In this document: in pieces, positions 25,081-43,515 of the stretch | Layout: each line of letters opens with the position of its first letter | Numbering within the stretch: position 1 is the stretch's first letter | Origin: Candidatus Pacearchaeota archaeon | GTDB lineage: Archaea; Nanobdellota; Nanobdellia; Pacearchaeales; GW2011-AR1 | Reading direction: 5' to 3' | DNA length: 64,000 nt | Assembly: GCA_016188825.1 (NCBI GenBank) | Contig: JACPHA010000011.1 | Span: 80,317-144,316 of the forward strand | Position numbers and translations under genes: made by a program | Notes under the pieces: model-generated | The model's input: only the letters and a program-made list of their open reading frames with translations | Database searches by the model: none | What the model was told of the DNA's origin: nothing

Positions 25081-28000
25081 TTAGGAAGGCATTAAAATAA
25101 ATGTCAAATTTGTACTTTTTGTTAAATTCAACGATTGCGTTCCTGTCACATAATCGACTTTGCTTGCATTAATAGTATAGTTTGTCTGATATGTTCTTGC
25201 AGAACCATTTACAGTATATTCTGTAACATTCTGCCTTACAATGTTTCCTGATGAGTTTGTTGTTATATTATGTGTTAATCCTCCAGTGTTGTTGTAAAAT
25301 AAAACTCTTGCTCCGCTTAATGAGTTATTTAAGTGGTCTTGAACACGAACATCGACGTACCATTGTTTGTAGAGAGTGCCGTTTATGACATTGTGTGTGG
25401 AATGGTTTGTATTTATTAAGTAAATTTCTTGATTGCTTGAAACGACTACATTTTCTAGATTAGAGCCGGAGATGTTAGAATCGATTATTTTGATGTTACT
25501 ACAAAAAGTACAGTAAATATTAAAATCAGTGACAGTACCTCCTCCTAAGTTTCCCAAAAATTTAGAGCGAATAATAGAAATATTTGAAGACAAGAGTTCT
25601 AAATCTGATACTTCTGCATTACTTAAAGTATTATTTTCGAATATAACATTTGATGTATTTATAGCTAGACCTCTTTTTAGATTGGCGGTTGTACTGCCTG
25701 CGTAACTAACATATGAATTCTTTAATATGAATTCTGAGCCAGTTAAAACTTGAAATTCGTGTCTAAAGGTATTGGATCTAGTTATGTTTGAATAGTTGGC
25801 TGAGAGATTTCCTGAGACATAAATACTATTTTCTGCATCTCCGATAGAGTTATTCATCTCCAAAGTACAACTTTCCATAATTAGTTTTCCTGTGGAAGTT
25901 ACATTAATATCAGCAGTGCTGACATATCTGCAAGGTCTAGAAGAGTCTGAAAGATTGTTAAAAACTTGGGCATTATTAACTCTCGTATAAATATCATGTA
26001 AGGTTTCTGTCGTTGTTACTTCTATTACATCGATAATGGGGGAGATTATTTGAAATTGTCTTGTTCCATTAAATCCTGTTGAATTGCCGTCGCTTGCATT
26101 CACATTCCAAAAATAAGTTTGTCCTTGATTTAATTTATATAAATTATCTACTTCTGCTGGTGATAATGTTCTATTCCAGATTCCAACTTCATCAATTACT
26201 CCTAAGAATGTGCCTACTCCAACTTCATCATCTCCAATCCATGTTGTTTCAGTATCTTGCCATGCGGTTATATTAATTGTTTTAAAATTGCAGATTGTTG
26301 AATTTACCGTTGTTATTATATTATTAACGTATAAAGATAAATTTCCAGTTGAATTTTCCCACGTTCCAGTAACCATTCTCCATTCTTCAAGAGTCCAGTT
26401 TTGAGCAGTAACAGAACAAAATGTGCTGTTTCCATTCTCTCCTATATCAAATATAAAACTACCTGGGCTTGAAGTTCTAAATCTAAAAAATCTATTATTT
26501 GTTGTTCCCGAAGTCCCCCATCTTGCTAATATTATATTTCCCGTCCCACTTGTTTTCTTTTTAACCCACATTGAAAAGCTGCATCCATTATTGCATAAAT
26601 CTTTATGGGCGGTTTGATTTAAAATATTAATTCCTATAGAGCCCGTGAAATTATAAGCTCCTCCCAAGATTCCAGAGAAATTATCATATCTTATATTTGC
26701 AGGTTCGCTTGGAGTATCTCCATCAAAATTATGGCTTGAAAAATCATGGATTATTCCTGTTGTTAAACCTTCTCCGCTTTCATTAAATTCTTTTCTATTG
26801 TCAAAATGATACAAGCCCCACATAGTTCCATCATCAATTAATGGCGGAACAGACCAGTTATATGTTTGCTCAATAAAATTAGTCCCATTTCCTCTAAATT
26901 TTTTTCTATTTATTATGCTTTCATCTATTTTTGTTAAATTGGAATTTCCATAAACAATGCTTTCAATTGTATTATTTTCTATATCTCGAACACTCCAATT
27001 TAGCAGCGTATATCTCGTATTTATGATTGAATTATTTGCAGGAGCATTAAGATTAATATTTGGAGGATTTCCGAAAATTCTCGTAAAATTCAATCTTACT
27101 TGAACTTGGTCAACTGCGGCAATTCCTGCTGTGCCACCATTATCTGTAAAATTAAGTCTTACTCCGAACTCTTGATTTGTTAATTCTCTTTTACTCCAAT
27201 TTCTTCCCCAATCATATGTTAAATTTCCGTATATAATTGTTGTTTCTGTGCAACCAAAAGTGTTAATAACTCTTCCTGATGTATAAGAAATATTAGAGCT
27301 TAAATTATAATTTAAATCTACGCCGATATCTGCCTGTCTCCCAGCAGCACAGAAACTTACTGCAGACCTTCCTTCCACGCTTACTTCTATGCCGTGAACA
27401 GTCCATGATTCATCTAAATTTTCTGTTGGTGAGATAAAACTAAAATTATGTGCGTGCATTACTTCGTATAAAGTTGATTCATCAGCTCTTGCATTGTCGG
27501 AGACAAAAGTATTATTACAGTTTGCCCATTGTTGAGTATTTGTGTCGCATGCTGACGGAGATTTATAAGGTGTTATTTCAGGGTCTAATCTTATTGTTAA
27601 ACCATTAAGAAACATAGAATTTTCATTTGTTAAACCTAAAGCGACTATTGAGCCATCGTAATAACCAAAAATGCTACCATTTCCAATATAAATATCTGTA
27701 ATATTAAATCCCGAATTAATTAAATCTCCAAATCTAAACTCATAATCGTAAAAATCAAACTTTGGAATTTTATCATTAAAACTCCCTCTTAAATGAACGG
27801 TTTCATTTTTTCTTAAAGTGCGTTCTTCGTTATCATAAATCAATCTTGTTCCTTCGCTTAACACATTAACATACCAAAATTTTACGTTTGTTAAATTATA
27901 ACCAAAATTATTTGTTATTGAATGCTTTAATTTAGCTGCTTTTTTTGGATGAAATTCTAAAATCTGTGTCCAACGAAAGTTTTGGTGGTTGTTGTAGTTT

Positions 28001-28314
28001 GTTAAAACATCAACAAGATATGAAATATTTGTGGTTTTGTTTATTTGTTCTATTGAAGTGTAATTTGAATAGATAGAATTCCAAATAAAATCTTCAGAAT
28101 TGTAGGTTTTGTTTTCTCTATTTACAACTCCTGTTACGACAAATCTTAGAGACCCTAAGGACTTTCCTTCTTTGTTTATCCCTATTTCCCCAGACGATGT
28201 TAACTGAAAGTTCAAACCATCATTGTGTGTAAATAAATCTTCAGCCCCTACGTCGTAAATTATAATTATAACAAAAAATATTAGGAAAACCCAAACTATT
28301 TTTCCTTTATTCAT
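25081..28314 (-). CDS. Large secreted surface protein (1077 aa) with LamG/ConA-like domain and beta-helix-like repeats, N-glycosylation-sequon rich
   Basis: Signal peptide; LamG-like block (..WGTSGTTNNRFFRFRTS..LYVNN..); many N-x-S/T; shares near-identical segments with the giant gene 31544-40384. Confidence 0.6.
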   Translation of the reverse strand: MNKGKIVWVFLIFFVIIIIYDVGAEDLFTHNDGLNFQLTSSGEIGINKEGKSLGSLRFVVTGVVNRENKTYNSEDFIWNSIYSNYTSIEQINKTTNISYLVDVLTNYNNHQNFRWTQILEFHPKKAAKLKHSITNNFGYNLTNVKFWYVNVLSEGTRLIYDNEERTLRKNETVHLRGSFNDKIPKFDFYDYEFRFGDLINSGFNITDIYIGNGSIFGYYDGSIVALGLTNENSMFLNGLTIRLDPEITPYKSPSACDTNTQQWANCNNTFVSDNARADESTLYEVMHAHNFSFISPTENLDESWTVHGIEVSVEGRSAVSFCAAGRQADIGVDLNYNLSSNISYTSGRVINTFGCTETTIIYGNLTYDWGRNWSKRELTNQEFGVRLNFTDNGGTAGIAAVDQVQVRLNFTRIFGNPPNINLNAPANNSIINTRYTLLNWSVRDIENNTIESIVYGNSNLTKIDESIINRKKFRGNGTNFIEQTYNWSVPPLIDDGTMWGLYHFDNRKEFNESGEGLTTGIIHDFSSHNFDGDTPSEPANIRYDNFSGILGGAYNFTGSIGINILNQTAHKDLCNNGCSFSMWVKKKTSGTGNIILARWGTSGTTNNRFFRFRTSSPGSFIFDIGENGNSTFCSVTAQNWTLEEWRMVTGTWENSTGNLSLYVNNIITTVNSTICNFKTINITAWQDTETTWIGDDEVGVGTFLGVIDEVGIWNRTLSPAEVDNLYKLNQGQTYFWNVNASDGNSTGFNGTRQFQIISPIIDVIEVTTTETLHDIYTRVNNAQVFNNLSDSSRPCRYVSTADINVTSTGKLIMESCTLEMNNSIGDAENSIYVSGNLSANYSNITRSNTFRHEFQVLTGSEFILKNSYVSYAGSTTANLKRGLAINTSNVIFENNTLSNAEVSDLELLSSNISIIRSKFLGNLGGGTVTDFNIYCTFCSNIKIIDSNISGSNLENVVVSSNQEIYLINTNHSTHNVINGTLYKQWYVDVRVQDHLNNSLSGARVLFYNNTGGLTHNITTNSSGNIVRQNVTEYTVNGSARTYQTNYTINASKVDYVTGTQSLNLTKSTNLTFILMPS

Positions 28315-28900
28315 TCGAATCCTCCACTAATTTTCTTATTTTTCTTTTCTTTCTAATTATTAAAACGACCGTAATTATTATCATTATTATTACAATTCCA
28401 ATAATTATCCATTTATTAATTGGTTTTTCTTCCGGTGCCAACAAGACTTCAACAGGTTTTTCAACAACCAACACAGGAATTGGAGTGTCTATTCCTGTTG
28501 AAAGAGAAACTCCTCCAGTACCTCCTGGAGCAACCTCAATAAAAGAAACAACTATTTTATATGTCGTGTTTATAGGAGTGTTTTCTGGAATTGATACTTC
28601 TATGGGGATAGGGATATCTTTGGTTTTTGCCTTCACTAAGTAATCTTTTTCATTCACGCTTGCAATTTCACTTCCTTCTATTAATTTGACTCTTATTGTA
28701 ACGTCATCTTCTCCAACCATGTTTTGCAAACCTAAATTAATAGTTCTTGTTTCTCCTGGATAAAAAGCAGCAGGAGTGTAGTCAGGTTTGTACCAATACT
28801 GCGAAGAAACTCCGAAAGCGTCGATTGAATTTAAAAATAAAATATTTGAGAATAAAATTAAACTCATTGATAAAATTAATTTTGTTGTTTTTTTTACCAT
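28307..28900 (-). CDS. Membrane-anchored small surface protein (signal peptide plus C-terminal TM and KRK tail)
   Basis: 197 aa; 8-bp overlap with downstream 1077-aa gene suggests co-transcription. Confidence 0.45.
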   Translation of the reverse strand: MVKKTTKLILSMSLILFSNILFLNSIDAFGVSSQYWYKPDYTPAAFYPGETRTINLGLQNMVGEDDVTIRVKLIEGSEIASVNEKDYLVKAKTKDIPIPIEVSIPENTPINTTYKIVVSFIEVAPGGTGGVSLSTGIDTPIPVLVVEKPVEVLLAPEEKPINKWIIIGIVIIMIIITVVLIIRKKRKIRKLVEDSNE

Positions 28901-28909
28901 TTTAAATTA

Positions 28910-29866
28910 TTATGTCAGTTTCACAAACCAGCTTCCTCCCGTGATTGTTGAATATGTTTGCGATGATATTCCTGACGGCACGGTTCTTAGGCAGTAATAA
29001 AGTTCTTCTTGCCCTGAAGTTTCATTTCCGTAATTTAATGTGTTGTTTCCTCTATTTAAAATTGTGTTCCCTAGTTGTCTGTCTGTTGCATTTTGCAATG
29101 TTGGAGTTGACAGAGCGCATTCTGCTGGAGGAGAGCCTCCGGTGCTGTTGCCAATGCTAAAGTTTCCCACACCGATGAATTGTGCAGGAGTTGTTTCGCC
29201 GTGAAGGTTAATTGCATTAACTGTTAAGTTCGGCGAGTTATAATTTCCAGTATTGTTAACTAAAGTTGGGTCGTTGCTTGCTGTCTGGTTTGTTGCTCCA
29301 ATGTTTACGGTGAATGTAAGAGAATTAGGTGATATTTTAAGGGCTTGCAATTGTCCATAACTAAAAGTCATGGAGGTGTTATGAATTCTTGTTGTATTTC
29401 CTAAGTCTGTTGCGCTTGCTCCGATATTCCAAACAGCATTTTCATCAAAATACCACATTTGAATTGTACAGGAATAATTTGCGCTTGTGGAGTCTATGTC
29501 TGCAACAAGAGAACAGCTTGTGTTTTGTCTCAACGGTTCTCCTGAATTAGTAAAGTTTGCCTGTACACTTGAATCATTTATGTCGTTAACTCCGTCGGAA
29601 TCATTGACAGTAACATAAAAAGTGAGACTAGTAAATGTATTTTCTGTTGGACCTGTTCCAGATAGAGTGCCATTAAACACATTGACTGTTACAGGATTTA
29701 TTCCAGTTAGTGTTACAGAAACATTTTCTGCCTGTTGTGTGGCTTTGCCTGTTATTTTAGTAAACCAGTCAGTTATTCCAGCAGAAACAAAATAACTGAA
29801 AATAGAAATAATAAAAATTATGATGATAAACATAAAAATTACAAAAAACACCTCTTTTTTTTCCAT
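28910..29866 (-). CDS. Surface protein paralogous to the distal ectodomain of the giant protein (N-terminal TM anchor)
   Basis: 318 aa; NFTNSGEPLRQNTSCSLVADIDSTSANYSCTIQMWYFDEN.. about 80% identical to giant protein segment; nucleotide blocks near-identical. Confidence 0.55.
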   Translation of the reverse strand: MEKKEVFFVIFMFIIIIFIISIFSYFVSAGITDWFTKITGKATQQAENVSVTLTGINPVTVNVFNGTLSGTGPTENTFTSLTFYVTVNDSDGVNDINDSSVQANFTNSGEPLRQNTSCSLVADIDSTSANYSCTIQMWYFDENAVWNIGASATDLGNTTRIHNTSMTFSYGQLQALKISPNSLTFTVNIGATNQTASNDPTLVNNTGNYNSPNLTVNAINLHGETTPAQFIGVGNFSIGNSTGGSPPAECALSTPTLQNATDRQLGNTILNRGNNTLNYGNETSGQEELYYCLRTVPSGISSQTYSTITGGSWFVKLT

Positions 29867-30083
29867 ATTTAAATTTTAAGCCAGCCCTGTTTTTAAATAT
29901 TATTGCACAATTTCTTTACTTTAAATAGGTAAAGATTTCTATGCATCAAGTCCAAGAGGGATTTTTAATGTTTTTATAGACAATTTGCTTGATTATGTTA
30001 CTCTTTTGCAAATTGTCTTATTAGAGAGTTTACATAAGATAAGTAACTCAATTATGTAAATTCTCTATAATCATCTCCACAAA

Positions 30084-31337
30084 TCACTCTAATCCGCAAA
30101 AGCAAAATTTCCACAGAGGAATAAATGAGTTATCTCCTATTTTTCCGCCCACATTTTTTGTGATAATAAAAGATTTTTTTATTTTTAATTTCTTTCCATA
30201 TTTTTTTAAAAAATAATTAATCCATCTCAAATCATTTTTATTGATTTTTGATGTGTATTTAACTTCTACTGGCATATTGTTTTTTAGGAAATCAATTTCT
30301 TTTTCTTTATCTCGCCAATAGTAATTTGTATTTAACTCGAAGAAAACCAAATTTTCAGCATATTTTTCTTCTGGAATATTGAAAGGTAACGAAAGCGCAG
30401 GGTGATACGCATAAACCCTGGAAAGCTTTCTTGACGCAATTCTTATAGAGGGCCGAAAATTTAAAATTCTTTTTATTAAAAAAGAAAATTCTAAATAAAA
30501 TAAAGCCTTATAGAGAGTGGTTTTCGTTCTTTTTAGTTCTTTTGCTAGTTCGTCTAGATTTAGGTATTGACCGGGATTTTCAAGAAAGATTTTTGTAAGT
30601 GTTTCAATTAAAAGTATGTCCGCTTCTTTAAATTCTTTAGGAATGTCTTTTAATATAATAGGATCGATAATGGCATTCCTGATGTAATTCTTTATAAAAC
30701 TAATATCTTTTTCGTTAACAATTTCAGGAAAAGGTCTAAAAAGAAATTTATCAAATTCTTTTTCCAATAAATCTGCGTGGAGAGAAACTTCTTTTTTTTC
30801 TATTTTTATTCCCTTAATTTCTAGAAATTCTCTGAATTTTAAAGGCCTAAGTTCATAATAAATGATTCTTCCCGCCAGAGTTTTTTTCGAGTTTGTCAAA
30901 ATATCTAATGAAGCCGATCCGGATACGAGAATTTTAATATTTTTAAAATTATCATAAATCAGTTTTATGCTCTCAACCCAATTTTTTGACTTTTGTGCTT
31001 CATCTATAAACAAATAAATTTTTTCCTTTTTATAATCAATATTGGTTATTTTAGAATAATCTTTTAAAATTTCTTCTATTCTTTTTTCTTGCAGGTCCGG
31101 TTCGTCAAAACTACAATAGAATATATTTAATGGGTTAATTTTCTTACTAATTAATTTGTTTATTAACTGATAAAAAATTGTTGATTTTCCTGTTCTTCTT
31201 AGTCCTATTAAAGCTTGAATTTGTTTCCTACCCAGGTCTTTTTCTATTATATGGAATAGGTCTCTAGGTGTTTCTGGAATAAAAGAGTCTTTTACTTTTT
31301 TTTCTGTCCACCAATGATTAAGTTCTATAATATCCAT
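30084..31337 (-). CDS. AAA+ ATPase of the DUF4143/AAA_14 archaeal family
   Basis: 417 aa; Walker A GLRRTGKST, Walker B LFIDEAQ. Confidence 0.65.
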   Translation of the reverse strand: MDIIELNHWWTEKKVKDSFIPETPRDLFHIIEKDLGRKQIQALIGLRRTGKSTIFYQLINKLISKKINPLNIFYCSFDEPDLQEKRIEEILKDYSKITNIDYKKEKIYLFIDEAQKSKNWVESIKLIYDNFKNIKILVSGSASLDILTNSKKTLAGRIIYYELRPLKFREFLEIKGIKIEKKEVSLHADLLEKEFDKFLFRPFPEIVNEKDISFIKNYIRNAIIDPIILKDIPKEFKEADILLIETLTKIFLENPGQYLNLDELAKELKRTKTTLYKALFYLEFSFLIKRILNFRPSIRIASRKLSRVYAYHPALSLPFNIPEEKYAENLVFFELNTNYYWRDKEKEIDFLKNNMPVEVKYTSKINKNDLRWINYFLKKYGKKLKIKKSFIITKNVGGKIGDNSFIPLWKFCFCGLE

Positions 31338-31424
31338 ATTCGTTTTTTATAAAAACTAATATTTAAACTTTTCGTTTTTTAAGAAAACGAATGTATAGTT
31401 AACAATTACTAACTTTTATGATAT

Positions 31425-31489
31425 CGTGAATTCTGGAAATTAGGATAAATTTTTGTCCAGAATTCCCGTGATGGATAATTCTCAAAAAA
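31425..31489 (+). repeat. R4 repeat copy
   Basis: cgtgaattctggaaattaggataaatttttgtccagaattcccgtgatggataattctcaaaaaa. Confidence 0.55.
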
Positions 31490-31543
31490 CTAATCCAATC
31501 AAAAGAATTGTCCATAATTGAATTTATCAGTTATGGCTAAAAA

Positions 31544-34500: not shown

Positions 34501-37500
34501 TTTGGTATGTTCTTGCCGTGCCATTAACAGTGTATTCTGTTACGTTTTGTTGGATTATGTTTCCAGAAAAGTTTGTTGTTATGTTGTGTGTTAGCGAGCC
34601 GGTATTGTTGTAAAAAATAACTCTGGCTCCGCTTAATGAGTTATTTAAGTGGTCTTGGACACGAACATCGACGTACCATTCCCTGAATAGCTTTCCACTT
34701 GCCTGAATATTATCATTTGTGTAGTTGGAATTTCGGATTGTTATGTTTCCTGAAGCGACGAAAATGTCCTCAAATTGTGCATCAGAAATATTAGAGTTAA
34801 CAACAATACTATTGTTACTGCCAGAATAAATATTATAGTCGGTTGAAGTGGATGAAGCACCTAAAAATAAAGAATCTTGTATATAAATTCCATTGGCTTG
34901 CAAATCTAAGTTTGCTGTATCTGCTCCCCTGAGAGTATTATTTCTAAATACAACGTTATTTGTGTTTAATGTAAGGCCTCTTCTATTTTTTAGATTAGCA
35001 GATCCTGTGTTTGAGACATATGAATTCAATATAGTCAAGTTGGAGTTTGTAGAAGTATAGAAGTCATATCTAAAGCTTCCAAAGCTAGTGATGTTTGAAT
35101 AATTTGCAGTTAGTCTTCCTCCAATTTCAATATCATATTGACCGCTAACAGTGCTATTCATCTCAAGTGCGCAGCTTTCCAAGATCAAATTGCCCGTAGA
35201 AGTCACATTTATACTTGCTTGGCTTGAATATCTACACGGCCTTGTTCCATCAGAAAGATTATTGAAAACATCACTGTTTCCAACTCTTGTAAAGATATCA
35301 TGTGGTGTTTCGGTCGTTGTTACTTCTATTACATCGATTAACTGCAAAGTTAAAGTTACAATAGAATCAGAAGTTATATTTCTAGAAGTTCCATTTGAGA
35401 CATATCCTGCTTTTGTGGCATTTATAGAATGATTATTTTGGTAAACTTTTCCAGAGCCAGTGTCTTTGTATTGAGTTAAATTCCTGAAAACAGCGCCTGC
35501 AGAATCTGTCAAAGCATTGAAAACAATTGCATTGGAGACGTTTCTGATTGTTACATTTGCGCTTCCTAGTGGTTGCGGAACTGCTCCGGTGTAAACAGAA
35601 ACGTTAACTCTAAACATTCTTTCTAGAGAACCGCCCGCAATTGTATAATTAGATGTATCACTGGAATTTAACAAAACAGTTGTGTTTTCAATGTCAATTC
35701 CGTAGAAGTTTATGTTTGCATCAGTTATGTTTAAAGCATTTCTAATATTTGAGAAGCTGAAGTTACCGTAACTGCCTCTGGGAAACGGATCAATAATTAT
35801 TGATGTAAAGTTGAATTTATTTGCAAAGGCGGGTGTTGTTACATTTCCTCCTGTTAAATTTAATCCTTGAGGAGAATGGATGAAAAAGGAGTATCTCCCA
35901 TCATTGGCAGTTGTGTTGAAAATTATATTACAAGTTGAATTTAGAGTTAGTGTTTCACTTGGAGTTATGTTCAAGTCAATGTTTAAGCCCACGCAGGTTG
36001 TGTAAGCGCTTGTGCACGCATAGCCCTGTTTTGTTGCAATGGCCAATGATTTTAAGTCATCGCAATTTAACGGCTCTACCACTTTTAGCTGGTTATCTGT
36101 AACGATAAACTCCCTTGCTTCTGATTCATTGCTTCTGCTTGTTGAGTCTGTGACATTTACTTTCCAGAAATATTTTCCTGCTTTTAATCTGTAAAGATTT
36201 TTTATTTCGTTTGCTGTCAAAGCTCTATTCCAGACAGCTACTTCATCAATTGTTCCGTTGAAATACAATCCTCCAAAGAGGTCGCCTTCTGCGCCGACCC
36301 TGAATCTGTTTGTTACAAGATTAAAAGTAACGCTTGTTGTTAAATTAGCAACAAAATTTCCATCAACATAAAGCGACTTTCCGGTGTTAGACTCAAAAAC
36401 TCCAACAACATGATGCCAGCCATTTCTTAAATCTATTGTTCCTCCTGCTGACTGCCTTGCTCCGTTGTCTTCTGCTATAATTCTTGCCTGTCCAGAGCCA
36501 TTTATTTCTATTCCATAGAGAGGGTCATCGGCAAAATCACTTCCTAATGAGGCAATTATTCCTTCAGTACTTCCTGTTTTATAAGCCCACCCTGAAAATG
36601 TGAAAGGATAAGCAGCCAAACCTAAATCGGACTCTTGCGTTATCCAGTCATTAACACCGTCAAATTGAACTCCATAGCCAAATTTTCCGCCATCTCTTGA
36701 AGTGTTGTAAACTGCTCCTGAAAATGTTCCGTTGTTATTATTGCCTGAAAAATCATAGGAATAAGTATCGTTTTCTCCTTTTGAAGATAAATTATCAAAA
36801 TGATACAACAATACCAAAGAATTTGAATTATTGCTAACAGGTAAAGCCGTGAAGTTGTAAGTTATTTCTGTGCCGTTTGTAACAGCGAGTTGTTTGTATA
36901 ATAGGTAATTATAGAAGTTTGAAGTTTCTTTTGAGTTTACACCATAAAGCAAAACATCAATTGTATCATTGTCTAAGTCATAAACTGTTGAGTTTAATGT
37001 TATGTTAAAGACATCTATTGCAAATGTAGAATCATTTGTTGGAGTATTAAGTGTTGTGTAGGGATTATTATACAAAGTATAATTAACCTGCGCCCAAATA
37101 GCATCTACTCCTGGATTAAAGCTTCGAGGGCTTTGACAATCGTTGCATGCAACCTGCATTATTCTTAATCTAAAACTTGAGTTTGAAAATTCACTCGCAT
37201 CCCATTCTCTTCCCCATTTGTCTGTTAGTCCTGTTAGAGTATTATTAGCATCTGTACATGTAGTCCATGTGGCTTGTTTTTCTGTTGTATAACTTGTGCC
37301 ATTATTCCAGCTTAAACTGACATTCAACACCGCCTGTCTGTCTATCCCTATGCAACTTGTACCATGCCTTGCTTCTACCTTAACTAAAATACCATTAATT
37401 GTCGCCCCAGCAGGAATGCCGAAACTATAATTACTTGTGTCTAACGCTTCTCCGTTTGTTGTTTCGTTTGCATAATTGTTATCCGAGACTTTAACATTTT

Positions 37501-40384
37501 CTCCTGCAATCCATTGATTTAATGGATAACCAGTGTCTGTTGGAGAAACTAAACCAGTTAGCTGCGGCTCTGCTGGGTCAATGATATGGTCAAGCTCTAT
37601 ACTACCATTTAAAATTCTTAAATCGAAGCTATCTTGAGTAATGTTATCTCCTAAACCAGTTAAGAAAACTTTATTGTATTGGTTGTCATTTATTGAAGAA
37701 AATTCTGCAATTAAAACAGAGCCATTAATTTCATAAACTTCAATTTTTGGAGTTCCATTGACTGTTCTTGGGAATAATGTAATATCATTCTCTTTTGTAA
37801 GATTTCTTTCAAACTTAACTCTTATGTAATGCGCTTCTGGGATAATTTCACTCCAGTTGTTGTCCAATTCCCTAACAGAGTCATAAATATCAGAAATAAA
37901 TTCACGAGTCTCATTTAAATGCTCTGCTTTTGTTATTACAATAATTTCAAATGTTTGGTTGCTTAATTGTGGGGCAATCCATTCTATATAGTCATAAATG
38001 CCATTCAGGTCAAGGTCAGAAATATTTGAAGGAATAATATAACTATCATTTTCAACCCAGAAAATTCTGATTTTTTTAGGATTGGTAACTGGGAGAGATT
38101 CTGGTAAATTCGTGAAAGCTAAAACATTTTCGTAGTGCACATCATCAGGGCCGATGATTTGAACTATTTTTCCTCTTGTCGTGTCTTCTTCTATTGCATA
38201 GGGAGCAGGAGTTTCATACACTACTTCAACTCCTGATTCATTGGAACTGATTTCTACAATAATTTCTATTGTTTCATTTTGTTCTTCGCTGACTGTAAGC
38301 CCGGTAAATCTGAAAAATGTGAATATTTTTTTAAACCAATCCATTAATCTGAAGAAAATTCCTTTTTTTCCAACTTCTTGTTGAAAAATTATATTTCCAT
38401 TTATGTCAACCTTTATTTTTTTAGAGCGCTTATTTTCATAAATTGATTGTCCTGTTATTAGAGAGCCATTAACAGTTTCTTCTGGTATTCCTTCATTTTC
38501 AAAATTAGACTGTGTTGTTTTTTCTAAAACACTTTCAGTTTCGTTAATTTCATTAGAAGTTTCATTAATTATTGAAGGATTTTCTTCAATAGAAGTTTGA
38601 TTTTGTTCTTCTTCTTGAATTTCTTCTGATATTTCTTCATTACTTTCTTCTATTCCTTCTATTTTCTTGATTTTTTTTACACTGATATTTTTAGCGCTTT
38701 CTGGCAGCTCAATTGTTACATTAGCGGGGCCAGTGACATTAATCGTTCTTGCCCATTTAACTGGCTGTCCTAAAACAGCTTTAAATTGTGTGATATTTGC
38801 TGTAAGATTTGATATTATTGTAATATTGGTCTGATTAGTTGGCGTAATCAAAGTTTCATTAATTAGTGTTTCGTTTGTTGGAGGGGTGATTGTTTCATTT
38901 AATTTAGGAGGGATAGTTATGTTTTCTTCAGGTAGAGTTATATTTTCTAATGGTTCAGAGACATTTTCTGGAATTTCCGGAGCCGGAATAGTAATATTTT
39001 CTGCCAGCTCTTTTTCAATTCTTATTTCATATTTTATTTTATCTAATTTTAATTTAGCATTTGTTATTTCTATTCTTAGAGTGTAAGAAGTTTTGTCTAA
39101 ATCAAATTCTTTTAAGTCACAAGTTTCTTTGCAAAAGTCCTTGAATTCTTTTACTGGGATTTCAAGTTCTTCTTTTTTCTTCTCCTCTTTTGGTTTTTCT
39201 TCAGTTACATTCTCTTCTACTGTTGGTTCTTCTATTGGCTGTTCTGCTCTAGGCTCTTCCGACGGGAGTTCTTCTTGAGGAGGCTGTTCGGCTTTCGGCG
39301 GTTCTTCAACCGGAGGCTCTTCTTGGACTGGCTTTTCTTGAGGAGTTGGTTCATCTGTTGGTTCTTCACTGCTGCTAGTTGTTTCAGAACTTTCTCTTGT
39401 TGAAGCTGAAGAATCAGAAGAATCTGTTGAAGTGGAAGAACTAGTTTCTTCATTTCCTTCTACGTTAAATCCTGTAATTGTTCCACTGGTGATTGTTTTT
39501 TTTCCAGTAACTTCGATTTCATTGCTGTCTAAAATTAAGAAATCATCAAGATAAATTTTTACTTCTCCTTCGCCTTCAATTTCTCCAGAAACCCTTAGCC
39601 AATTTAAAACCCCTTGTTTGTCTAGGGTAAATTCTTGTTCTATGCTTTCTTTAAAAGTTAAATCAACATTTTTAGTGTGAACTTCGTCAGCCAATTCAAC
39701 TGTCAAACCTGTCAGACCCAATTTGTCAGAATAGATATAGAGTAAGAATAACAAAGCAGTAAATAAAACAAAAGCAAAAACAAAGCCAGAGGCCCCTATT
39801 GCAATTCTTTTTATATTTTCTTTTCTAATCTCCGCATCGCAAATTTCTATTTGTTTTTTGCATTGTTCTATATAATTATTATAATAATCGACCCATTCTT
39901 GCGCCGTCTTGTTTTGTAAAGTTTCTTTTAATTTTTTTTCACAATAATCAGAAGTTATTTCTTTATTTTTATACTTCAAGAACAATTCATTAGCAAAAGA
40001 AATAATTTTTTTCTTGTTGTATTCTGCTTCTTTAATCTTGGTGTATAACGACTTTTTTCTTTCGTCTAAATGGCTCAGCTTAATTTCCCTAATTCCGGTC
40101 GCGTTTTTCTTTTCTTTTTCTATTTCTTCATTATACCATTCTAATTGGGCTTTGTGCGTCCTTAATTGGATGTCATAATGGCTAGTCCATTGCTCTGCCG
40201 TTAGGTCCTTGAAAATTTCCCCATATTTTTTTTGATATTGCTCATAGTTTAATAATCCAATATTATACTGAAAATTTAGTTTTTGTAAAATATTTTCAAT
40301 TCTTTCTTTTTCTAATTTACACAGTTCAATTTTTTTTAAAATTTCTCTTCTTTTTTCTTCAAGTTGTTTTAATTTATCTTCCAT
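31544..40384 (-). CDS. Giant (2946 aa) two-TM surface protein: N-terminal cytoplasmic coiled coil, TM, S/T/P/E-rich stalk, 2 LamG-like domains, beta-helix-like repeats, second TM, C-terminal cytoplasmic tandem sigma70-region4/LuxR-like HTH repeats
   Basis: Uninterrupted ORF; TM1 IAIGASGFVFAFVLFTALLFLLYIY; LamG blocks with ..WHH(V/I)VGVF..LYVDG..GTIDEVAVWNR; TM2 SWLIKGTIALAAFALG followed by RRRKKK; tail repeats GLRFSEIARLLNRDQRTVWINYNNAIKK / GLRNIEIAKILDRDPRNIWTLHSRAIKKLKE. Confidence 0.65.
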   Translation of the reverse strand: MEDKLKQLEEKRREILKKIELCKLEKERIENILQKLNFQYNIGLLNYEQYQKKYGEIFKDLTAEQWTSHYDIQLRTHKAQLEWYNEEIEKEKKNATGIREIKLSHLDERKKSLYTKIKEAEYNKKKIISFANELFLKYKNKEITSDYCEKKLKETLQNKTAQEWVDYYNNYIEQCKKQIEICDAEIRKENIKRIAIGASGFVFAFVLFTALLFLLYIYSDKLGLTGLTVELADEVHTKNVDLTFKESIEQEFTLDKQGVLNWLRVSGEIEGEGEVKIYLDDFLILDSNEIEVTGKKTITSGTITGFNVEGNEETSSSTSTDSSDSSASTRESSETTSSSEEPTDEPTPQEKPVQEEPPVEEPPKAEQPPQEELPSEEPRAEQPIEEPTVEENVTEEKPKEEKKKEELEIPVKEFKDFCKETCDLKEFDLDKTSYTLRIEITNAKLKLDKIKYEIRIEKELAENITIPAPEIPENVSEPLENITLPEENITIPPKLNETITPPTNETLINETLITPTNQTNITIISNLTANITQFKAVLGQPVKWARTINVTGPANVTIELPESAKNISVKKIKKIEGIEESNEEISEEIQEEEQNQTSIEENPSIINETSNEINETESVLEKTTQSNFENEGIPEETVNGSLITGQSIYENKRSKKIKVDINGNIIFQQEVGKKGIFFRLMDWFKKIFTFFRFTGLTVSEEQNETIEIIVEISSNESGVEVVYETPAPYAIEEDTTRGKIVQIIGPDDVHYENVLAFTNLPESLPVTNPKKIRIFWVENDSYIIPSNISDLDLNGIYDYIEWIAPQLSNQTFEIIVITKAEHLNETREFISDIYDSVRELDNNWSEIIPEAHYIRVKFERNLTKENDITLFPRTVNGTPKIEVYEINGSVLIAEFSSINDNQYNKVFLTGLGDNITQDSFDLRILNGSIELDHIIDPAEPQLTGLVSPTDTGYPLNQWIAGENVKVSDNNYANETTNGEALDTSNYSFGIPAGATINGILVKVEARHGTSCIGIDRQAVLNVSLSWNNGTSYTTEKQATWTTCTDANNTLTGLTDKWGREWDASEFSNSSFRLRIMQVACNDCQSPRSFNPGVDAIWAQVNYTLYNNPYTTLNTPTNDSTFAIDVFNITLNSTVYDLDNDTIDVLLYGVNSKETSNFYNYLLYKQLAVTNGTEITYNFTALPVSNNSNSLVLLYHFDNLSSKGENDTYSYDFSGNNNNGTFSGAVYNTSRDGGKFGYGVQFDGVNDWITQESDLGLAAYPFTFSGWAYKTGSTEGIIASLGSDFADDPLYGIEINGSGQARIIAEDNGARQSAGGTIDLRNGWHHVVGVFESNTGKSLYVDGNFVANLTTSVTFNLVTNRFRVGAEGDLFGGLYFNGTIDEVAVWNRALTANEIKNLYRLKAGKYFWKVNVTDSTSRSNESEAREFIVTDNQLKVVEPLNCDDLKSLAIATKQGYACTSAYTTCVGLNIDLNITPSETLTLNSTCNIIFNTTANDGRYSFFIHSPQGLNLTGGNVTTPAFANKFNFTSIIIDPFPRGSYGNFSFSNIRNALNITDANINFYGIDIENTTVLLNSSDTSNYTIAGGSLERMFRVNVSVYTGAVPQPLGSANVTIRNVSNAIVFNALTDSAGAVFRNLTQYKDTGSGKVYQNNHSINATKAGYVSNGTSRNITSDSIVTLTLQLIDVIEVTTTETPHDIFTRVGNSDVFNNLSDGTRPCRYSSQASINVTSTGNLILESCALEMNSTVSGQYDIEIGGRLTANYSNITSFGSFRYDFYTSTNSNLTILNSYVSNTGSANLKNRRGLTLNTNNVVFRNNTLRGADTANLDLQANGIYIQDSLFLGASSTSTDYNIYSGSNNSIVVNSNISDAQFEDIFVASGNITIRNSNYTNDNIQASGKLFREWYVDVRVQDHLNNSLSGARVIFYNNTGSLTHNITTNFSGNIIQQNVTEYTVNGTARTYQTNYTINASQYGYQEVSLSVNLTSSRNFTFTINNTIFPSITLNTPANTSVFHVGTFNITLNASVTDQFNDLVDVAIYGVNSTSTANFYKHGLLYQNINFSSGTSFTYNWTSPVTIPDNDTLVLFHFDNRKEFNESSLSDSGSKSPSDTGYPSNQWTTGENVKSSDDNYANESTAGDMLDTSNYSFSIPSGVNITGILVVLEGKQSCIGPPCGNPGVAVALSWNNGTSYTTPIEESFSSSSDVLINYGGIGNTWGRTWSSTEFSNANFRVRLNYTGNSDNNAVPRLDFVQVVLFYGGKIYDFSDKGNNGTVFNSWTTTNQIINTTASVYNVSGGKFGGAYEFDGVDDYIGLGTQAGVSDIQAVSDAGINSYPFTFSAWVKKANDTTNGVIVSLADSSTQNRYFHININSSGQALISAHNGTSTSVGGTTDLRGNWHHIVGVFKNNAQKELYVDGAFVINATTSVSFLSSTDYINIGRNGDGIPDSYFNGTIDEVAVWNRSLTATEIKNLYRLNVGKYFWKVNVTDFAGNNNESETRELTVNNTAPQITSVSSIGSISPTEGSTTNVTFYLIMKDNDGVNDLADTSVKANFTRSGEPLRQNTSCALVGDIDSTSANYSCTIQMWYFDENGVWNITVYGEDVEGLSAINTTTNFSYVQLQSLKISPAQINFAVNIGATNQTSTNDPTLINNTGNYNFTNITVNAINLHGESVSTFYIDIANFSIGNNTGASNPECGQSGATTLTNGTDRQIINTVLNRGNNSINDGSTGQEQIYYCLRTVPSTISSQIYSTSTAGSWLIKGTIALAAFALGERARRRKKKLGELSENNSLEVLDEKLKERYGTSLDELLKEKYGLGLHELLISVKRSELKIPLEIFAQEMGAAEALCKYLKENLGLRFSEIARLLNRDQRTVWINYNNAIKKKKEKIIVKEKRFAPLEIFSNRKLSILESLVYYWKEKGLRNIEIAKILDRDPRNIWTLHSRAIKKLKE

Positions 40385-43373: not shown

Positions 43374-43515
43374 GATCCCGTAGCTTAGCCTGGTCAGAGC
43401 GCCGGTCTTATATGACGTGCGTTTCTTCCTTGCTTAATTTGGGGAAGCAATGCAGAGCTTTATCGAGCAATTCGAAGAAAGCCGGAGGTCGGGAGTTCAA
43501 ATCTCCCCGGGATCA
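43374..43515 (+). tRNA. tRNA-Ile(UAU) with ~67-nt intron at canonical 37/38 position (about 43413-43479)
   Basis: Acceptor gatcccg/cgggatc + A73; D-arm; anticodon stem ccggt/gccgg across the intron with loop c-t-TAT-a; T-arm gggag-ttcaaat-ctccc. Confidence 0.5.

What the first reader, a model, noticed from the sequence alone, without database searches (positions are those of the whole stretch)
25081..40384. Co-directional surface-protein cluster with recent domain shuffling and an embedded DUF4143 AAA ATPase
Five minus-strand genes: the giant, an ATPase, a 318-aa gene, a 197-aa gene and a 1077-aa gene (the last two overlap by 8 bp). The 1077-aa and 318-aa proteins are mosaics of segments of the giant protein. 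DNA blocks are near-identical: 25305-25364 vs 34621-34680 (58/60 nt), 29455-29550 vs 32640-32735, 28921-29000 vs 32101-32180. Protein blocks are ~80-90% identical (WYVDVRVQDHLNNSLSGARV..., IDVIEVTTTETxHDI..., NFT(R/N)SGEPLRQNTSC...). This points to ongoing recombination or gene conversion among surface-protein modules, which would create antigenic or host-range variation. Why a cytoplasmic AAA ATPase sits between them is unexplained.
Basis: seen in the sequence. Interest (0 to 1): 0.6.

Follow-up and report, generated by a model that had tools for sequence, protein, structure and literature searches.

The report
DPANN surface-protein operon with gene conversion
This cluster of sugar-coated cell-surface protein genes from a tiny Pacearchaeota archaeon is a widely conserved but unnamed operon in which a free two-domain protein and its copy inside the neighbouring giant protein repeatedly overwrite each other by gene conversion; the ATPase in the middle is an unrelated, inserted defence-candidate gene.

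Summary
The five minus-strand genes are real. The paralogy is real too, but it is old, not recent shuffling. The window comes from a Candidatus Pacearchaeota (DPANN) genome.

**Conserved core.** In 33 of 71 loci the order is:
- a giant double-anchored envelope protein (cytoplasmic coiled coil, TM, sequon-rich lectin-like ectodomain, two-Ig module, short TM, cytoplasmic HTH tail);
- a secreted ~315-aa two-Ig paralogue of that module;
- a ~190-aa TM-anchored protein.

The two-Ig family has no Pfam model. It has 1,805 representative clusters.

**Age and conversion.** Outside short tracts, synonymous sites between the paralogues are saturated (same-codon 0.44 against 0.46 expected). Three tracts (~140, ~65 and ~60 nt) have 0.77-0.90 same-codon identity, which indicates gene conversion. 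Across genomes, the free and embedded modules are sister sequences in 13 of 30 cases. They share exact runs of up to 368 nt, reproduced in two independent assemblies.

**ATPase.** It matches PADLOC candidate PDC-S01 (E 4.8e-49). It fills a junction that is normally ~47 nt. No other sampled cluster has an ATPase there.

**Not supported.** Antigenic or host-range variation is not supported. The function (host or surface adhesion, with possible signalling through the HTH tail) is inferred, not shown.

The parts
31544..40384 (-). Giant envelope protein (2946 aa). Predicted topology is N-in and C-in, with a ~2540-aa ectodomain.
   Evidence: ORF. Homologues of 900-4400 aa occur in 40+ loci. There are 135 N-X-S/T sequons in aa 221-2757 (5.3 per 100 aa; 2.1 expected from composition) and 3 in the two terminal parts.
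39800..40384 (-). Giant aa 1-195: Lys/Arg-rich coiled-coil-like N-terminal part, predicted cytoplasmic. A TM helix follows at aa ~196-220 (39725-39799).
   Evidence: Sequence. Hydrophobicity scan finds a TM at 191-209. The region is conserved in L012 (giantN E 8e-33) and partly in many other loci. No Pfam hit.
37550..38470 (-). Giant aa 639-945: the most conserved ectodomain region of the family. Predicted beta-sandwich plus CBM-like jelly-roll.
   Evidence: phmmer E down to 5e-92 in other giants. AlphaFold model pLDDT 80.6, above 90 for aa ~90-300 of the segment. Foldseek finds CBM6, CBM32, CBM86 and APC10-like partial matches only. No Pfam hit.
36170..36787 (-). Giant LamG copy 1 (aa ~1200-1405).
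   Evidence: Laminin_G_3 with 2 stretches, 1.3e-41 for the whole protein; Pentaxin at 1319-1400. phmmer with the 1077 LamG matches 1210-1410.
34409..35344 (-). Giant aa 1681-1992: block shared with the C-terminal 310 aa of the 1077-aa protein. An unassigned ~210-aa region plus a sub-threshold CarboxypepD_reg-like domain.
   Evidence: phmmer E 6e-100. blastp 56% over 303 aa. CarboxypepD_reg scores 25 bits against a cutoff of 32.3.
32942..33523 (-). Giant LamG copy 2 (aa ~2288-2481).
   Evidence: Laminin_G_3 best stretch 2321-2466. TafC-like partial hit at 2268-2471, far below cutoff.
32111..32974 (-). Giant aa 2471-2758: membrane-proximal two-Ig module (E), paralogue of the 318-aa protein.
   Evidence: phmmer E 5e-97. 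An equivalent embedded module sits just before the C-terminal anchor in 42 aligned giants.
31547..32113 (-). Giant aa 2758-2946: short hydrophobic stretch, polybasic run (ERARRRKKK), then a cytoplasmic tail with two HTH motifs.
   Evidence: The 'hydrophobic 10-15 aa + K/R run' pattern is conserved in about 30 giants. The tail alone passes the Pfam cutoff for Sigma70_r4_2 (31.5 vs 25.7 bits), with HTH_23 and GerE sub-threshold. Weak match to the CviR LuxR-type HTH, E 0.0097.
30084..31337 (-). AAA_14 + DUF4143 ATPase (417 aa). A PDC-S01-type candidate defence gene, inserted between the giant and the 318-aa gene.
   Evidence: Pfam. PADLOC PDC-S01 E 4.8e-49. Zero sequons. The giant-to-S gap is 1677 nt here against a median of ~47 nt in 34 junctions. 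No flanking direct or inverted repeats. It is a separate Logan unitig, 29992-31472.
28910..29866 (-). 318-aa secreted two-Ig protein (S). Member of a large unnamed family.
   Evidence: AlphaFold pLDDT 89.2: N-terminal helix plus two beta-sandwich domains. Only generic Ig/Fab-like fold matches. 123 homologues, mostly 290-340 aa. 1805 representative clusters. No Pfam hit. 5.35 sequons per 100 aa.
28307..28900 (-). 197-aa protein: signal peptide, small Ig-like domain, C-terminal TM and a polybasic tail.
   Evidence: Sequence. A homologue follows S in 50 S-197 pairs, most often with a 1-nt gap. Homologue P0123 matches Ig_VWA7 at 2.9e-07.
25081..28314 (-). 1077-aa secreted paralogue, colinear with giant aa ~926-1410 and 1681-1992. 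Lineage-specific fourth gene.
   Evidence: Laminin_G_3 4e-16. blastp and phmmer to the giant. No homologue in this position in other loci, where fourth genes of 563-585 aa differ.
29429..29572 (-). Conversion tract 1, copy in the 318-aa gene (aa 99-146). Partner is giant 32615-32758.
   Evidence: nt identity 0.87-0.95 and third-position identity 0.80-0.95, against 0.3-0.45 in the flanks. Same-codon 0.795 inside vs 0.437 outside. 87/96 at 29455-29550 vs 32641-32736.
32615..32758 (-). Conversion tract 1, copy in the giant (aa ~2543-2590).
   Evidence: Repeat family D1, spacing 3186 nt..
25305..25364 (-). Conversion tract 2, copy in the 1077-aa gene (aa ~984-1006). Partner is giant 34621-34680.
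   Evidence: 58/60 nt. Same-codon 0.90 vs 0.436 in the adjacent block of 85-90% aa identity. The 30-mer at 25312 recurs at 34628 and ends an independent contig.
34621..34680 (-). Conversion tract 2, copy in the giant (aa ~1902-1921).
   Evidence: (D2).
25975..26037 (-). Conversion tract 3 (weaker), copy in the 1077-aa gene (aa ~760-780). Partner is giant ~35279-35341.
   Evidence: Third-position identity 0.75 in this window. Same-codon 0.765 vs 0.346 in the next block. Repeat family D3.

Best explanation
The region is the local copy of a conserved, unnamed cell-envelope operon of Pacearchaeota, Woesearchaeota and Nanoarchaeia (DPANN archaea).

**Core of the operon**
1. A giant, heavily N-glycosylated envelope protein held in the membrane at both ends. 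It has a cytoplasmic coiled-coil N-terminus and TM1. The ectodomain has a CBM-like domain, two LamG lectin-type domains and a membrane-proximal two-Ig module. Then come a short TM2, a polybasic stop and a cytoplasmic tail with two sigma-70-region-4/LuxR-type HTH motifs.
2. A secreted ~315-aa protein that is a free copy of the two-Ig module.
3. A ~190-aa Ig-like protein with a C-terminal membrane anchor.

The 1077-aa gene is a lineage-specific extra paralogue of the middle of the giant.

**Age of the paralogues**
They are ancient. Because they lie 1.5-9 kb apart in the same orientation, homologous recombination occasionally copies short stretches from one into the other (gene conversion). In the window this has left three tracts of ~60-140 nt. 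In many related genomes it has homogenised the free and embedded two-Ig modules almost completely (concerted evolution).

**The ATPase**
It is not part of the system. It is a PDC-S01-type (ATPase + PD-(D/E)XK) candidate defence gene that landed in the normally ~47-nt junction between the giant and the 318-like gene.

**Shown**
- Gene structure and conservation of the operon.
- Domain content.
- Saturation of synonymous sites outside the tracts.
- The tract pattern, and paralogues clustering by genome.
- The foreign nature of the ATPase.

**Inferred**
- Membrane topology and N-glycosylation.
- That the three proteins form one surface structure used for attachment to a host or substrate.
- That conversion is favoured because the free and embedded modules must fit the same partner.
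- Any regulatory role of the HTH tail.
For: **Organism**
- The 318-aa protein is NCBI HYV50_03270 of a Candidatus Pacearchaeota archaeon.
- An intron-containing tRNA is present, as are FtsZ and an archaeal-type Obg-like GTPase.

**Conserved operon**
- 68 genome loci were retrieved.
- 33 of 71 loci have giant -> S -> 197-like on one strand; many of the rest are cut by contig ends.
- The median giant-S gap is ~47 nt. The S-197 gap is most often 1 nt.

**Family size**
- 1805, 1261 and 724 representative clusters at E <= 1e-3, 1e-10 and 1e-30.
- Both free (~300-335 aa) and embedded forms occur, the latter in proteins up to 4368 aa.

**Topology**
- 135 sequons in the ectodomain and 3 in the termini.
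- The hydrophobic + polybasic motif is conserved.
- The HTH tail passes the Pfam cutoff.

**Folds**
-.

**Ancient paralogy with local conversion**
- 318 vs giant: same-codon 0.437 outside the tract and 0.795 inside, with 0.462 expected.
- 1077 vs giant: tracts at 0.90 and 0.765, against 0.436 and 0.346 in neighbouring blocks of 70-90% aa identity.
- Permutation tests: 7/5000 and 27/5000.

**Concerted evolution across genomes**
- Mean aa identity is S-S 0.395, E-E 0.42 and S-E 0.40. Within-genome S-E identity reaches 0.78.
- The NJ tree places S and E of one genome as sisters in 13 of 30 genomes. Bootstrap is >= 0.95 in 8 of them; the window pair has 0.875.
- Nested groupings such as (L052 S,E)(L058 S,E) have bootstrap 0.98.
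- Exact shared runs are 368, 326, 115, 113 and 66 nt.
- L005 and L006 come from different samples and differ at 10 sites, yet both carry the 368-nt run.
- Tract positions differ between genomes.

**ATPase**
- PADLOC PDC-S01 E 4.8e-49.
- The literature describes PDC-S01 as an unvalidated single-gene candidate with an ATPase fused to a PD-(D/E)XK domain, abundant in Archaea (PMC12988326). DUF4143 is listed among PD-(D/E)XK families (PMC3424549).
- No ATPase occupies this junction in any other cluster.
Against: - No experimental or expression data exist for any gene of the operon. Adhesion, complex formation and glycosylation are inferred from domain types, sequon density and topology only.
- TM2 is unusually short (about 12-15 hydrophobic residues), so the cytoplasmic location of the HTH tail is not certain.
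- The tree is neighbour-joining on 248 columns with simple distances. Deep nodes are poorly supported, and sparse sampling (one genome per species) inflates 'closest relative is my own paralogue'.
- In about half of the genomes S and E do not cluster together, so conversion is episodic, not universal.
- The window's own tracts are short, and their permutation support is moderate (p about 0.001-0.005, uncorrected for choice of window size).
- No target-site duplication or element ends were found around the ATPase, so the insertion mechanism is unknown.
- ATPase paralogues lie near the operon in 5 other loci, so a loose association cannot be excluded.
Confidence: 0.75

Rival explanations
1. One reading: a dedicated variation system in which ongoing recombination among surface-protein modules generates antigenic or host-range diversity, as in pilE/pilS- or vlsE-type cassette systems.
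For: - Conversion tracts exist.
- The family evolves fast: mean identity between species-level representatives is ~40%.
- Copy number of the S+197 pair varies, with 2-3 tandem pairs in L063, L070 and L041.
- Neighbouring large proteins share modules with their own giant in L014, L040, L047 and L050.
Against: - There are only two or three paralogous copies per locus.
- All are full-length genes with start codons and signal peptides or anchors. No silent or truncated cassettes were found.
- The observed outcome is homogenisation of the copies.
- Most of the paralogous sequence is saturated at synonymous sites.
- Independent contigs from two samples (L001, L002) are identical to the window over 25312-30021 and 27382-30021 respectively.
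Confidence: 0.12
2. No recombination: the similar blocks reflect only purifying selection on conserved protein motifs in old paralogues.
For: Blocks with 85-95% aa identity between the 1077-aa protein and the giant (1077 aa 1007-1050 and 781-815) have saturated synonymous sites (same-codon 0.436 and 0.346).
Against: - Inside the three tracts, synonymous codons are 77-90% identical against ~45% expected.
- Third positions match at 18-19 of 20.
- In other genomes the same pair shares exact runs of 113-368 nt. Selection on protein sequence cannot produce this.
Confidence: 0.06
3. Repeated fresh duplication (birth and death) rather than conversion: the free gene is repeatedly re-created from the giant's module, or the reverse.
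For: - S and E of one genome are sisters in 13 of 30 genomes.
- Tandem duplications of S+197 do occur in L063, L070 and L041.
Against: - The S-specific N-terminus (signal peptide plus the 'VSAGxxDWFxxxITG' linker) is conserved among free proteins and absent from embedded modules. The gene order and the junction lengths are also constant.
- Similarity within a pair is patchy, with tracts at different positions in different genomes. This fits partial conversion, not whole-module replacement.
Confidence: 0.08
4. The ATPase is a functional partner of the surface proteins, for example an assembly, export or regulatory ATPase.
For: - It is co-directional and lies between the giant and the 318-aa gene.
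- AAA_14/DUF4143 paralogues lie within 10 kb of the operon in L003 (two), L014, L025, L041 and L073.
Against: - It is absent from the junction in all 33 other complete clusters.
- It has no signal peptide, TM or sequons.
- Its best match is the PDC-S01 defence candidate.
- In the other loci the paralogues are on either strand and in different positions.
- It has its own flanking intergenic regions of 206 and 217 nt, with palindromes.
Confidence: 0.05
5. Assembly artefact: repeats or the gene order result from MAG mis-assembly or collapse.
For: - The source is a metagenome-assembled genome.
- Logan unitigs break at 25312, 29992-30021 and 31443-31472.
Against: - The window's tracts are 60-140 nt at 90-97% identity. 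They are too short and too divergent to collapse.
- Independent contigs reproduce 25312-30021 and 29992-31472 without mismatch and overlap by k-1 = 30 nt.
- The 368-nt run in L005 is reproduced in L006 from another sample.
Confidence: 0.03

Closest known systems
SPEARE proteins of Nanohaloarchaeota (Hamm et al. 2019, PMC6642349)
   Same: Both are very long DPANN proteins that are mostly extracytoplasmic. Both have at least one laminin-G domain and other adhesion-type domains. Both have a TM segment near the C-terminus and a conserved cytoplasmic C-terminal part related to nucleic acids (for SPEARE; here).
   Different: - The cytoplasmic part here is a pair of HTH motifs, not a type III restriction-enzyme module.
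- No serine protease or toxin domain was detected.
- There is an additional N-terminal TM and a cytoplasmic coiled coil.
- The gene sits in a fixed operon with a free paralogue of its membrane-proximal module.
- No sequence homology to SPEARE was tested directly.
Gene conversion and concerted evolution between paralogous surface-adhesin genes, e.g. Helicobacter pylori babA/babB, and cassette systems such as Neisseria pilE/pilS (from general knowledge, not tested here)
   Same: Patchy, tract-wise transfer of sequence occurs between paralogous surface-protein genes in one genome. Paralogues are more alike within a genome than orthologues are between genomes.
   Different: - One partner here is a domain embedded in a giant protein and the other is a free-standing gene immediately downstream.
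- There are no silent cassettes.
- The result is homogenisation.
- It occurs in archaea. A literature search found no paper describing this for DPANN surface genes.
PADLOC candidate PDC-S01 (AAA_14 + DUF4143; COG1373)
   Same: The ATPase matches seven PDC-S01 models, the best at E 4.8e-49 over residues 24-370. It has the AAA_14 + DUF4143 architecture.
   Different: PDC-S01 is itself only a 'guilt-by-embedding' candidate without experimental validation. Nothing here shows that this copy defends against viruses.
Archaeal S-layer and surface glycoproteins built from tandem Ig-like domains, e.g. Haloferax volcanii csg (from general knowledge)
   Same: The proteins are secreted, Ig-like beta-sandwich domains with very dense N-glycosylation sequons. 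The family is abundant within the lineage.
   Different: - No sequence or specific fold match to any solved S-layer protein was found; only generic Ig/Fab hits.
- No evidence of lattice formation.
Membrane-tethered one-component transcription regulators (ToxR/CadC type) and RsgI-type transmembrane sensors (from general knowledge)
   Same: An extracytoplasmic sensing or binding part is joined through a single TM to a cytoplasmic HTH-type domain.
   Different: - The HTH here is C-terminal and follows a >2500-aa ectodomain.
- There is no homology beyond the generic HTH.
- DNA binding and signalling are untested.
- In five loci the HTH tail is a separate upstream ORF.

Membership tests
PDC-S01 / AAA_14-DUF4143 ATPase (COG1373) | N-terminal AAA_14 P-loop domain | tested here: met
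   PF13173 E 1.4e-33, 116 bits against cutoff 27, residues 38-172.
PDC-S01 / AAA_14-DUF4143 ATPase (COG1373) | C-terminal DUF4143 (PD-(D/E)XK-superfamily) domain | tested here: met
   PF13635 E 7.2e-10, 39.3 bits against cutoff 28.1, residues 230-361. DUF4143 is listed as a PD-(D/E)XK family in PMC3424549. Catalytic residues were not inspected.
PDC-S01 / AAA_14-DUF4143 ATPase (COG1373) | Match to the PADLOC PDC-S01 profile | tested here: met
   PDLC04787 E 4.8e-49, residues 24-370 of 417 against positions 12-366 of 412.
PDC-S01 / AAA_14-DUF4143 ATPase (COG1373) | Protection against viruses | not testable with these tools
   The candidate itself is unvalidated (PMC12988326).
SPEARE giant proteins | Long, mostly extracytoplasmic protein with at least one laminin-G domain | tested here: met
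   Laminin_G_3 1.3e-41, two copies. The ectodomain is inferred from TM and sequon distribution.
SPEARE giant proteins | Conserved cytoplasmic type III restriction-enzyme-like region | tested here: not met
   The cytoplasmic tail gives only HTH families (Sigma70_r4_2, HTH_23, GerE). No restriction or helicase family was found.
SPEARE giant proteins | Serine protease domain | tested here: not met
   No protease family in Pfam scans of the whole protein or of eight segments.
Cassette-type antigenic variation system | Multiple silent or partial donor cassettes feeding one expression site | tested here: not met
   Only complete ORFs with their own start codons and signal peptides or anchors. There are 2-3 copies per locus.
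Cassette-type antigenic variation system | Within-population mosaic variants of the expressed gene | tested here: inconclusive
   Independent contigs from two samples (L001, L002) are identical to the window over 25312-30021 and 27382-30021. No read-level data were available.
Concerted evolution by gene conversion | Paralogues group by genome rather than by type | tested here: met
   13 of 30 genomes, with bootstrap >= 0.95 in 8. Nested genome-wise pairs also occur. Mean S-E identity equals mean S-S identity.
Concerted evolution by gene conversion | Discrete tracts of raised synonymous identity against a diverged background | tested here: met
   Same-codon 0.795, 0.90 and 0.765 in the tracts against 0.35-0.44 outside. 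Exact runs up to 368 nt in other genomes.
Sigma-70 region 4 / LuxR-type HTH | Profile match above the curated threshold | tested here: met
   The tail alone scores 31.5 bits for PF08281 against cutoff 25.7. L005's tail scores 47.4 bits. Within the whole giant the score is 23.2 bits, below cutoff.
Sigma-70 region 4 / LuxR-type HTH | DNA binding or transcription control | not testable with these tools
   None.

The most novel reading that the evidence does not exclude
The giant protein is a contact sensor and membrane-tethered transcription factor. Binding of its lectin-like ectodomain to a host cell or surface is passed across the membrane (or releases the tail by cleavage), so that the cytoplasmic HTH tail changes gene expression. 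The free two-Ig protein and the small anchored protein assemble on, or compete with, the membrane-proximal two-Ig module. Recurrent gene conversion is selected because it keeps the free and embedded modules interchangeable while the family diverges fast. This would be a previously unrecognised host-sensing apparatus specific to Pacearchaeota/Woesearchaeota-type DPANN archaea.
Probability: 0.12. Interest if true: 0.8.

Novelty: new variant of a known kind. Interest (0 to 1): 0.5.

Why it matters
DPANN archaea are thought to live attached to other cells, yet the molecules that make the contact are almost unknown outside Nanohaloarchaeota.

- **A candidate contact apparatus.** This work defines a conserved, so far unnamed operon. 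Its two-Ig family has 1,805 representative clusters and no Pfam model. The operon combines a giant lectin-like envelope protein, a free copy of its membrane-proximal module and a small anchored partner. It is a concrete candidate for that contact apparatus and can be tested by proteomics, cryo-ET and structure prediction of complexes.
- **Concerted evolution in uncultivated archaea.** It gives a clear example of concerted evolution between a free-standing gene and a domain embedded in its neighbour.
- **A possible route from surface to transcription.** The cytoplasmic HTH tail on a surface giant suggests a link from surface contact to transcription.
- **A warning for annotators.** The AAA_14/DUF4143 ATPase is a hitch-hiking defence-candidate gene, not part of the surface system.

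Tried and rejected
- **Pfam, NCBIfam and PADLOC on the 318-aa, 197-aa, 1077-aa and giant proteins.** Only LamG, a sub-threshold CarboxypepD_reg and the HTH were found. A TafC hit of 63 bits against a cutoff of 410 was rejected. Nothing was found for the 318-aa or 197-aa proteins.
- **Fold search of the 318-aa model against PDB and BFVD.** Only generic Ig, Fab and FN3 matches with TM 0.2-0.3, so no functional assignment.
- **Fold search of the conserved giant domain.** Only partial CBM6, CBM32, CBM86 and APC10 jelly-roll matches. No enzyme assignment.
- **Beta-helix idea for giant aa 1690-1900.** Only a weak G8 hit (E 0.014), so it was not claimed.
- **Mobile-element ends around the ATPase.** No target-site duplication or terminal inverted repeats. 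Only a 16-nt hairpin downstream and a palindrome upstream.
- **Viral origin of the two-Ig family.** No relative in 2.9 million viral contigs.
- **Internal repeats of the giant (A/A', B/B', LamG1/LamG2).** 49-57% aa identity and third-position identity 0.45-0.50. The longest identical run is 22 nt, so there is no recent conversion.
- **blastp self-comparison of the giant.** It returned no off-diagonal hits with my filter. It was replaced by phmmer and targeted alignments.
- **Literature searches for DPANN gene conversion, Pacearchaeota giant proteins and DUF4143.** They found no description of this operon.
- **Tract-coverage histogram.** It is distorted by gap columns and was not used. Only the per-genome tract list was.

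Full report
**1. Observation**

The 197-aa and 1077-aa ORFs overlap by 8 nt. The 417-aa protein carries AAA_14 (1.4e-33) and DUF4143 (7.2e-10).

- blastp aligns the 318-aa protein to giant aa 2468-2759 at 56% identity.
- It aligns aa 622-1074 of the 1077-aa protein to giant aa 1534-1992 at 45% identity.
- Of the three DNA blocks, 25305-25364 vs 34621-34680 is 58/60 as stated.
- The second block is 87/96 only after a 1-nt shift (32641-32736).
- The third is 60/80 after a 15-nt shift, so it is not near-identical.
- The repeat finder shows the longer, more diverged context: 209 nt at 80%, 202 nt at 81% and 189 nt at 71%.

**2. Organism and surroundings**

The 318-aa protein is identical to NCBI HYV50_03270 from a Candidatus Pacearchaeota archaeon. 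A 142-nt tRNA match implies an intron. FtsZ, an archaeal-type Obg-like GTPase and other housekeeping genes flank the cluster. G+C is 29-38%.

Mobile or defence-type genes lie nearby:
- a HepT/MNT pair at 20.9-21.7 kb;
- a phage-type metallopeptidase at 41 kb;
- an integrase at 50-51 kb.

**3. Anatomy of the giant protein**

- The sequence begins with a Lys/Arg-rich coiled-coil-like region (aa 1-195), followed by a hydrophobic helix at aa ~196-220.
- The following ~2540 residues carry 135 N-X-S/T sequons. That is 5.3 per 100 aa, against 2.1 expected from composition. The two terminal parts carry 3.
- Recognisable parts of this stretch:
  - an acidic, Pro-rich linker;
  - the family's most conserved region (aa 639-945), modelled at pLDDT 81 as a beta-sandwich plus a CBM-like jelly-roll;
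  - two LamG domains;
  - a ~310-aa block shared with the 1077-aa protein that includes a sub-threshold CarboxypepD_reg-like domain;
  - a two-Ig module at aa 2471-2758.
- A short hydrophobic stretch and 'ERARRRKKK' follow directly. The last 175 residues have two HTH motifs.
- Scanned on its own, this tail passes the Pfam cutoff for Sigma70_r4_2 (31.5 vs 25.7 bits). It also weakly matches the LuxR-type HTH of CviR.
- The 'short hydrophobic + polybasic + HTH' ending is conserved in about 30 homologous giants.

**4. Anatomy of the smaller proteins**

- The 318-aa protein models with pLDDT 89 as an N-terminal signal helix and two Ig-like beta-sandwiches. It has four invariant cysteines. Only generic Ig/Fab fold matches were found.
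- The 197-aa protein has a signal peptide, a small domain that matches the VWA7 Ig-like family in a homologue (2.9e-07), and a C-terminal TM with a polybasic tail.
- The 1077-aa protein has a signal peptide and is colinear with giant aa ~926-1410 and 1681-1992.
- Sequon density is 4.7-5.4 per 100 aa in the giant, the 1077-aa and the 318-aa proteins. It is 0.5 in the 197-aa protein and 0 in the ATPase. Other genes of the window have at most ~1.5.

**5. The cluster is a conserved operon**

A profile of the 318-aa family retrieved 68 loci from species-representative genomes labelled Pacearchaeota, Woesearchaeota, Nanoarchaeota or Nanoarchaeia. I annotated these, three context loci and the window with my own ORF calls and phmmer.

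- 33 of 71 loci have, on one strand, a large protein ending in a 318-like module, then a free ~300-330-aa 318-like gene, then a 197-like gene. Many of the others are cut by contig ends.
- The gap from giant stop to free-gene start has a median of ~47 nt. The free gene and the 197-like gene are most often 1 nt apart.
- Precomputed gene calls for three homologues show the same order.
- The large protein varies from ~900 to >4000 aa. It keeps the N-terminal TM, the aa 639-945-like domain, the two-Ig module and usually the HTH tail.
- In five loci the HTH tail is a separate ORF just upstream, and the giant then ends exactly at the end of the two-Ig module.
- The fourth gene is variable, and no 1077-like gene was found in that position elsewhere.
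- An exhaustive profile search finds 1805 representative clusters (724 at E <= 1e-30). They include free and embedded forms.
- The family has no Pfam model. No relative was found in viral contigs.

**6. The paralogues are old, with short conversion tracts in the window**

- For 318 vs giant (297 aligned codons), aa identity is 0.57, nt identity 0.63 and third-position identity 0.48.
- Among identical, degenerate amino acids outside aa 99-146, the same codon is used in 0.437 of cases. Codon usage alone predicts 0.462, so synonymous sites are saturated. Inside aa 99-146 the value is 0.795.
- In that tract, nt identity is 0.87-0.95 and third-position identity 0.80-0.95.
- For 1077 vs giant, two short tracts stand out: aa 984-1006 (same-codon 0.90; this is the 58/60 block) and aa 760-780 (0.765).
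- The adjoining blocks, although 70-90% identical in protein, are saturated (0.436 and 0.346).
- Permutations that keep amino-acid identity classes reach the observed third-position clustering in 7/5000 and 27/5000 trials.
- The giant's internal duplicates show no such tracts.
Only ~60-140-nt tracts show conversion.

**7. Concerted evolution is a property of the family**

- Over 248 aligned columns, mean identity is 0.395 among free modules (S), 0.42 among embedded modules (E) and 0.40 between types. There is therefore no deep S/E split.
- Within one genome, S-E identity reaches 0.78 and often exceeds the best match to any other genome.
- In a bootstrapped NJ tree of 93 modules, S and E of the same genome are sisters in 13 of 30 genomes. 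Bootstrap is >= 0.95 in 8 of them, and the window pair has 0.875.
- Related genomes form nested genome-wise pairs, for example (L052 S,E)(L058 S,E) at 0.98.
- At the DNA level the pairs share exact runs of 368 nt (L005), 326 nt (L052), 115 nt (L056), 113 nt (L050) and 66 nt (L008).
- L006 is an assembly from another sample that differs from L005 at 10 of 5423 positions. It carries the same 368-nt run.
- Tracts fall at different places in different genomes.
- In other lineages (e.g. L027/L028, L003/L014) S groups with S and E with E, so conversion is episodic.
- Tandem duplicates of the S+197 pair occur in L063 (100% identical), L070 and L041. Other neighbouring large proteins share modules with their own giant in L014, L040, L047 and L050.

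**8. The ATPase**

- It matches PADLOC's PDC-S01 models (best E 4.8e-49).
- A 2026 survey describes PDC-S01 as an unvalidated single-gene defence candidate made of an ATPase fused to a PD-(D/E)XK-superfamily domain. It reports 9,986 occurrences in Archaea (PMC12988326). DUF4143 is listed among PD-(D/E)XK families (PMC3424549).
- The window's giant-to-S gap of 1677 nt is the largest of 34. Only this one holds an ATPase. L049 holds a different 232-aa ORF, and L070 a duplicated S.
- I found no element ends or target duplication.
- In an independent Logan assembly the ATPase segment is its own 1481-nt unitig (window 29992-31472). It overlaps the next unitig by exactly 30 nt. The junction 30-mers are unique within the window. 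This may reflect strain polymorphism for the insertion, but I could not test that.

**9. How it most likely works**

Shown:
- the operon, its domains and its conservation;
- the ancient paralogy with episodic conversion;
- the foreign ATPase.

Inferred:
- The giant spans the membrane twice, with both ends inside. It displays a heavily N-glycosylated, lectin-like ectodomain.
- The free two-Ig protein and the small anchored Ig-like protein act at the base of this structure.
- Adjacency and same orientation allow RecA/RadA-type recombination to copy tracts between the two-Ig copies.
- Homogenisation may be favoured if both copies must fit the same partner, but a neutral by-product of adjacency is equally possible.
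- Given the DPANN lifestyle and the LamG/CBM-like content, attachment to a host cell or polymer is the most likely role (my estimate ~0.5).
- The HTH tail could couple surface events to transcription (speculative, ~0.1).

**10. Comparison with known systems**

- The nearest described proteins are the SPEARE giants of Nanohaloarchaeota. Those have a long LamG-containing ectodomain, a C-terminal TM and a conserved cytoplasmic tail. The tail here is an HTH pair rather than a restriction-enzyme module, and no protease or toxin domain is present. The giant is therefore analogous to SPEARE, not a member.
- Conversion between adhesin paralogues is well known in bacteria (general knowledge).
- The configuration here, a free gene versus a domain embedded in its giant neighbour, recurring across a DPANN class, was not found in the literature searched.

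**11. Caveats**

- All sequences are from metagenome assemblies.
- The trees are NJ with simple distances.
- Topology and glycosylation are predictions.
- The window's own tracts are short.
- Two structure libraries were unavailable.
- No read-level data could be examined.

Noticed in passing
window 43374-43515: A tRNA match spans 142 nt (Rfam 55 bits), which implies an intron. ARAGORN did not report it. A borderline tRNA-like hit (29.7 bits) lies at 11282-11341.
   Followed up: no
window 20882-21696; 51690-52349: A HepT-like RNase and an MNT nucleotidyltransferase form a toxin-antitoxin pair. A second MNT-like ORF lies further downstream.
   Followed up: no
window 40973-41359; 43551-44072; 48758-49306; 49917-51326: A phage-type metallopeptidase, DUF6879, a NYN domain protein and a tyrosine integrase lie around the cluster. 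This suggests a variable, mobile-element-rich neighbourhood.
   Followed up: no
window 22707-24779 (+): A 690-aa ORF with an N-terminal hydrophobic segment and no Pfam hit. Its sequon density is low (1.3 per 100 aa), unlike the cluster. It converges on the 1077-aa gene.
   Followed up: partly
window 29992-30021 and 31443-31472; L075, L001: Logan unitig boundaries fall on both flanks of the ATPase, with exact 30-nt overlap to the next unitig. The junction 30-mers are unique in the window, which may mean a strain polymorphism for the insertion.
   Followed up: partly
window 30022-30067 and 31338-31392: A 16-nt, 94% complementary hairpin lies just downstream of the ATPase stop. A 27-nt palindrome lies just upstream of its start.
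   Followed up: no
L063 11449-14713; L041 5244-10981; L070 796-2662: Tandem duplicates of the [318-like + 197-like] gene pair: 100% identical in L063, three diverged pairs in L041, and two S copies in L070.
   Followed up: partly
L038 5299-5844; L051 7666-8196; L053 5566-6093; L059 801-1412; L071 7663-8193: In these loci the HTH tail is a separate ~180-200-aa ORF that overlaps the start of the giant. The giant then ends exactly after the two-Ig module, which looks like a split or permuted form of the same system.
   Followed up: partly
L073 1085-2374; L049 1240-1938: In L073 a PDC-S01-like ATPase lies between the C-terminus of one giant and the N-terminus of another. In L049 an unrelated 232-aa ORF occupies the giant-to-S junction.
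   Followed up: no
L005 11548-13239; L003 11603-13360: The fourth genes of 563-585 aa in other loci give weak hits to the Nup98-type autopeptidase S59 (E 1.5e-4 to 2e-3, below cutoff) and to Ig-like domains. They are unrelated to the window's 1077-aa gene.
   Followed up: no
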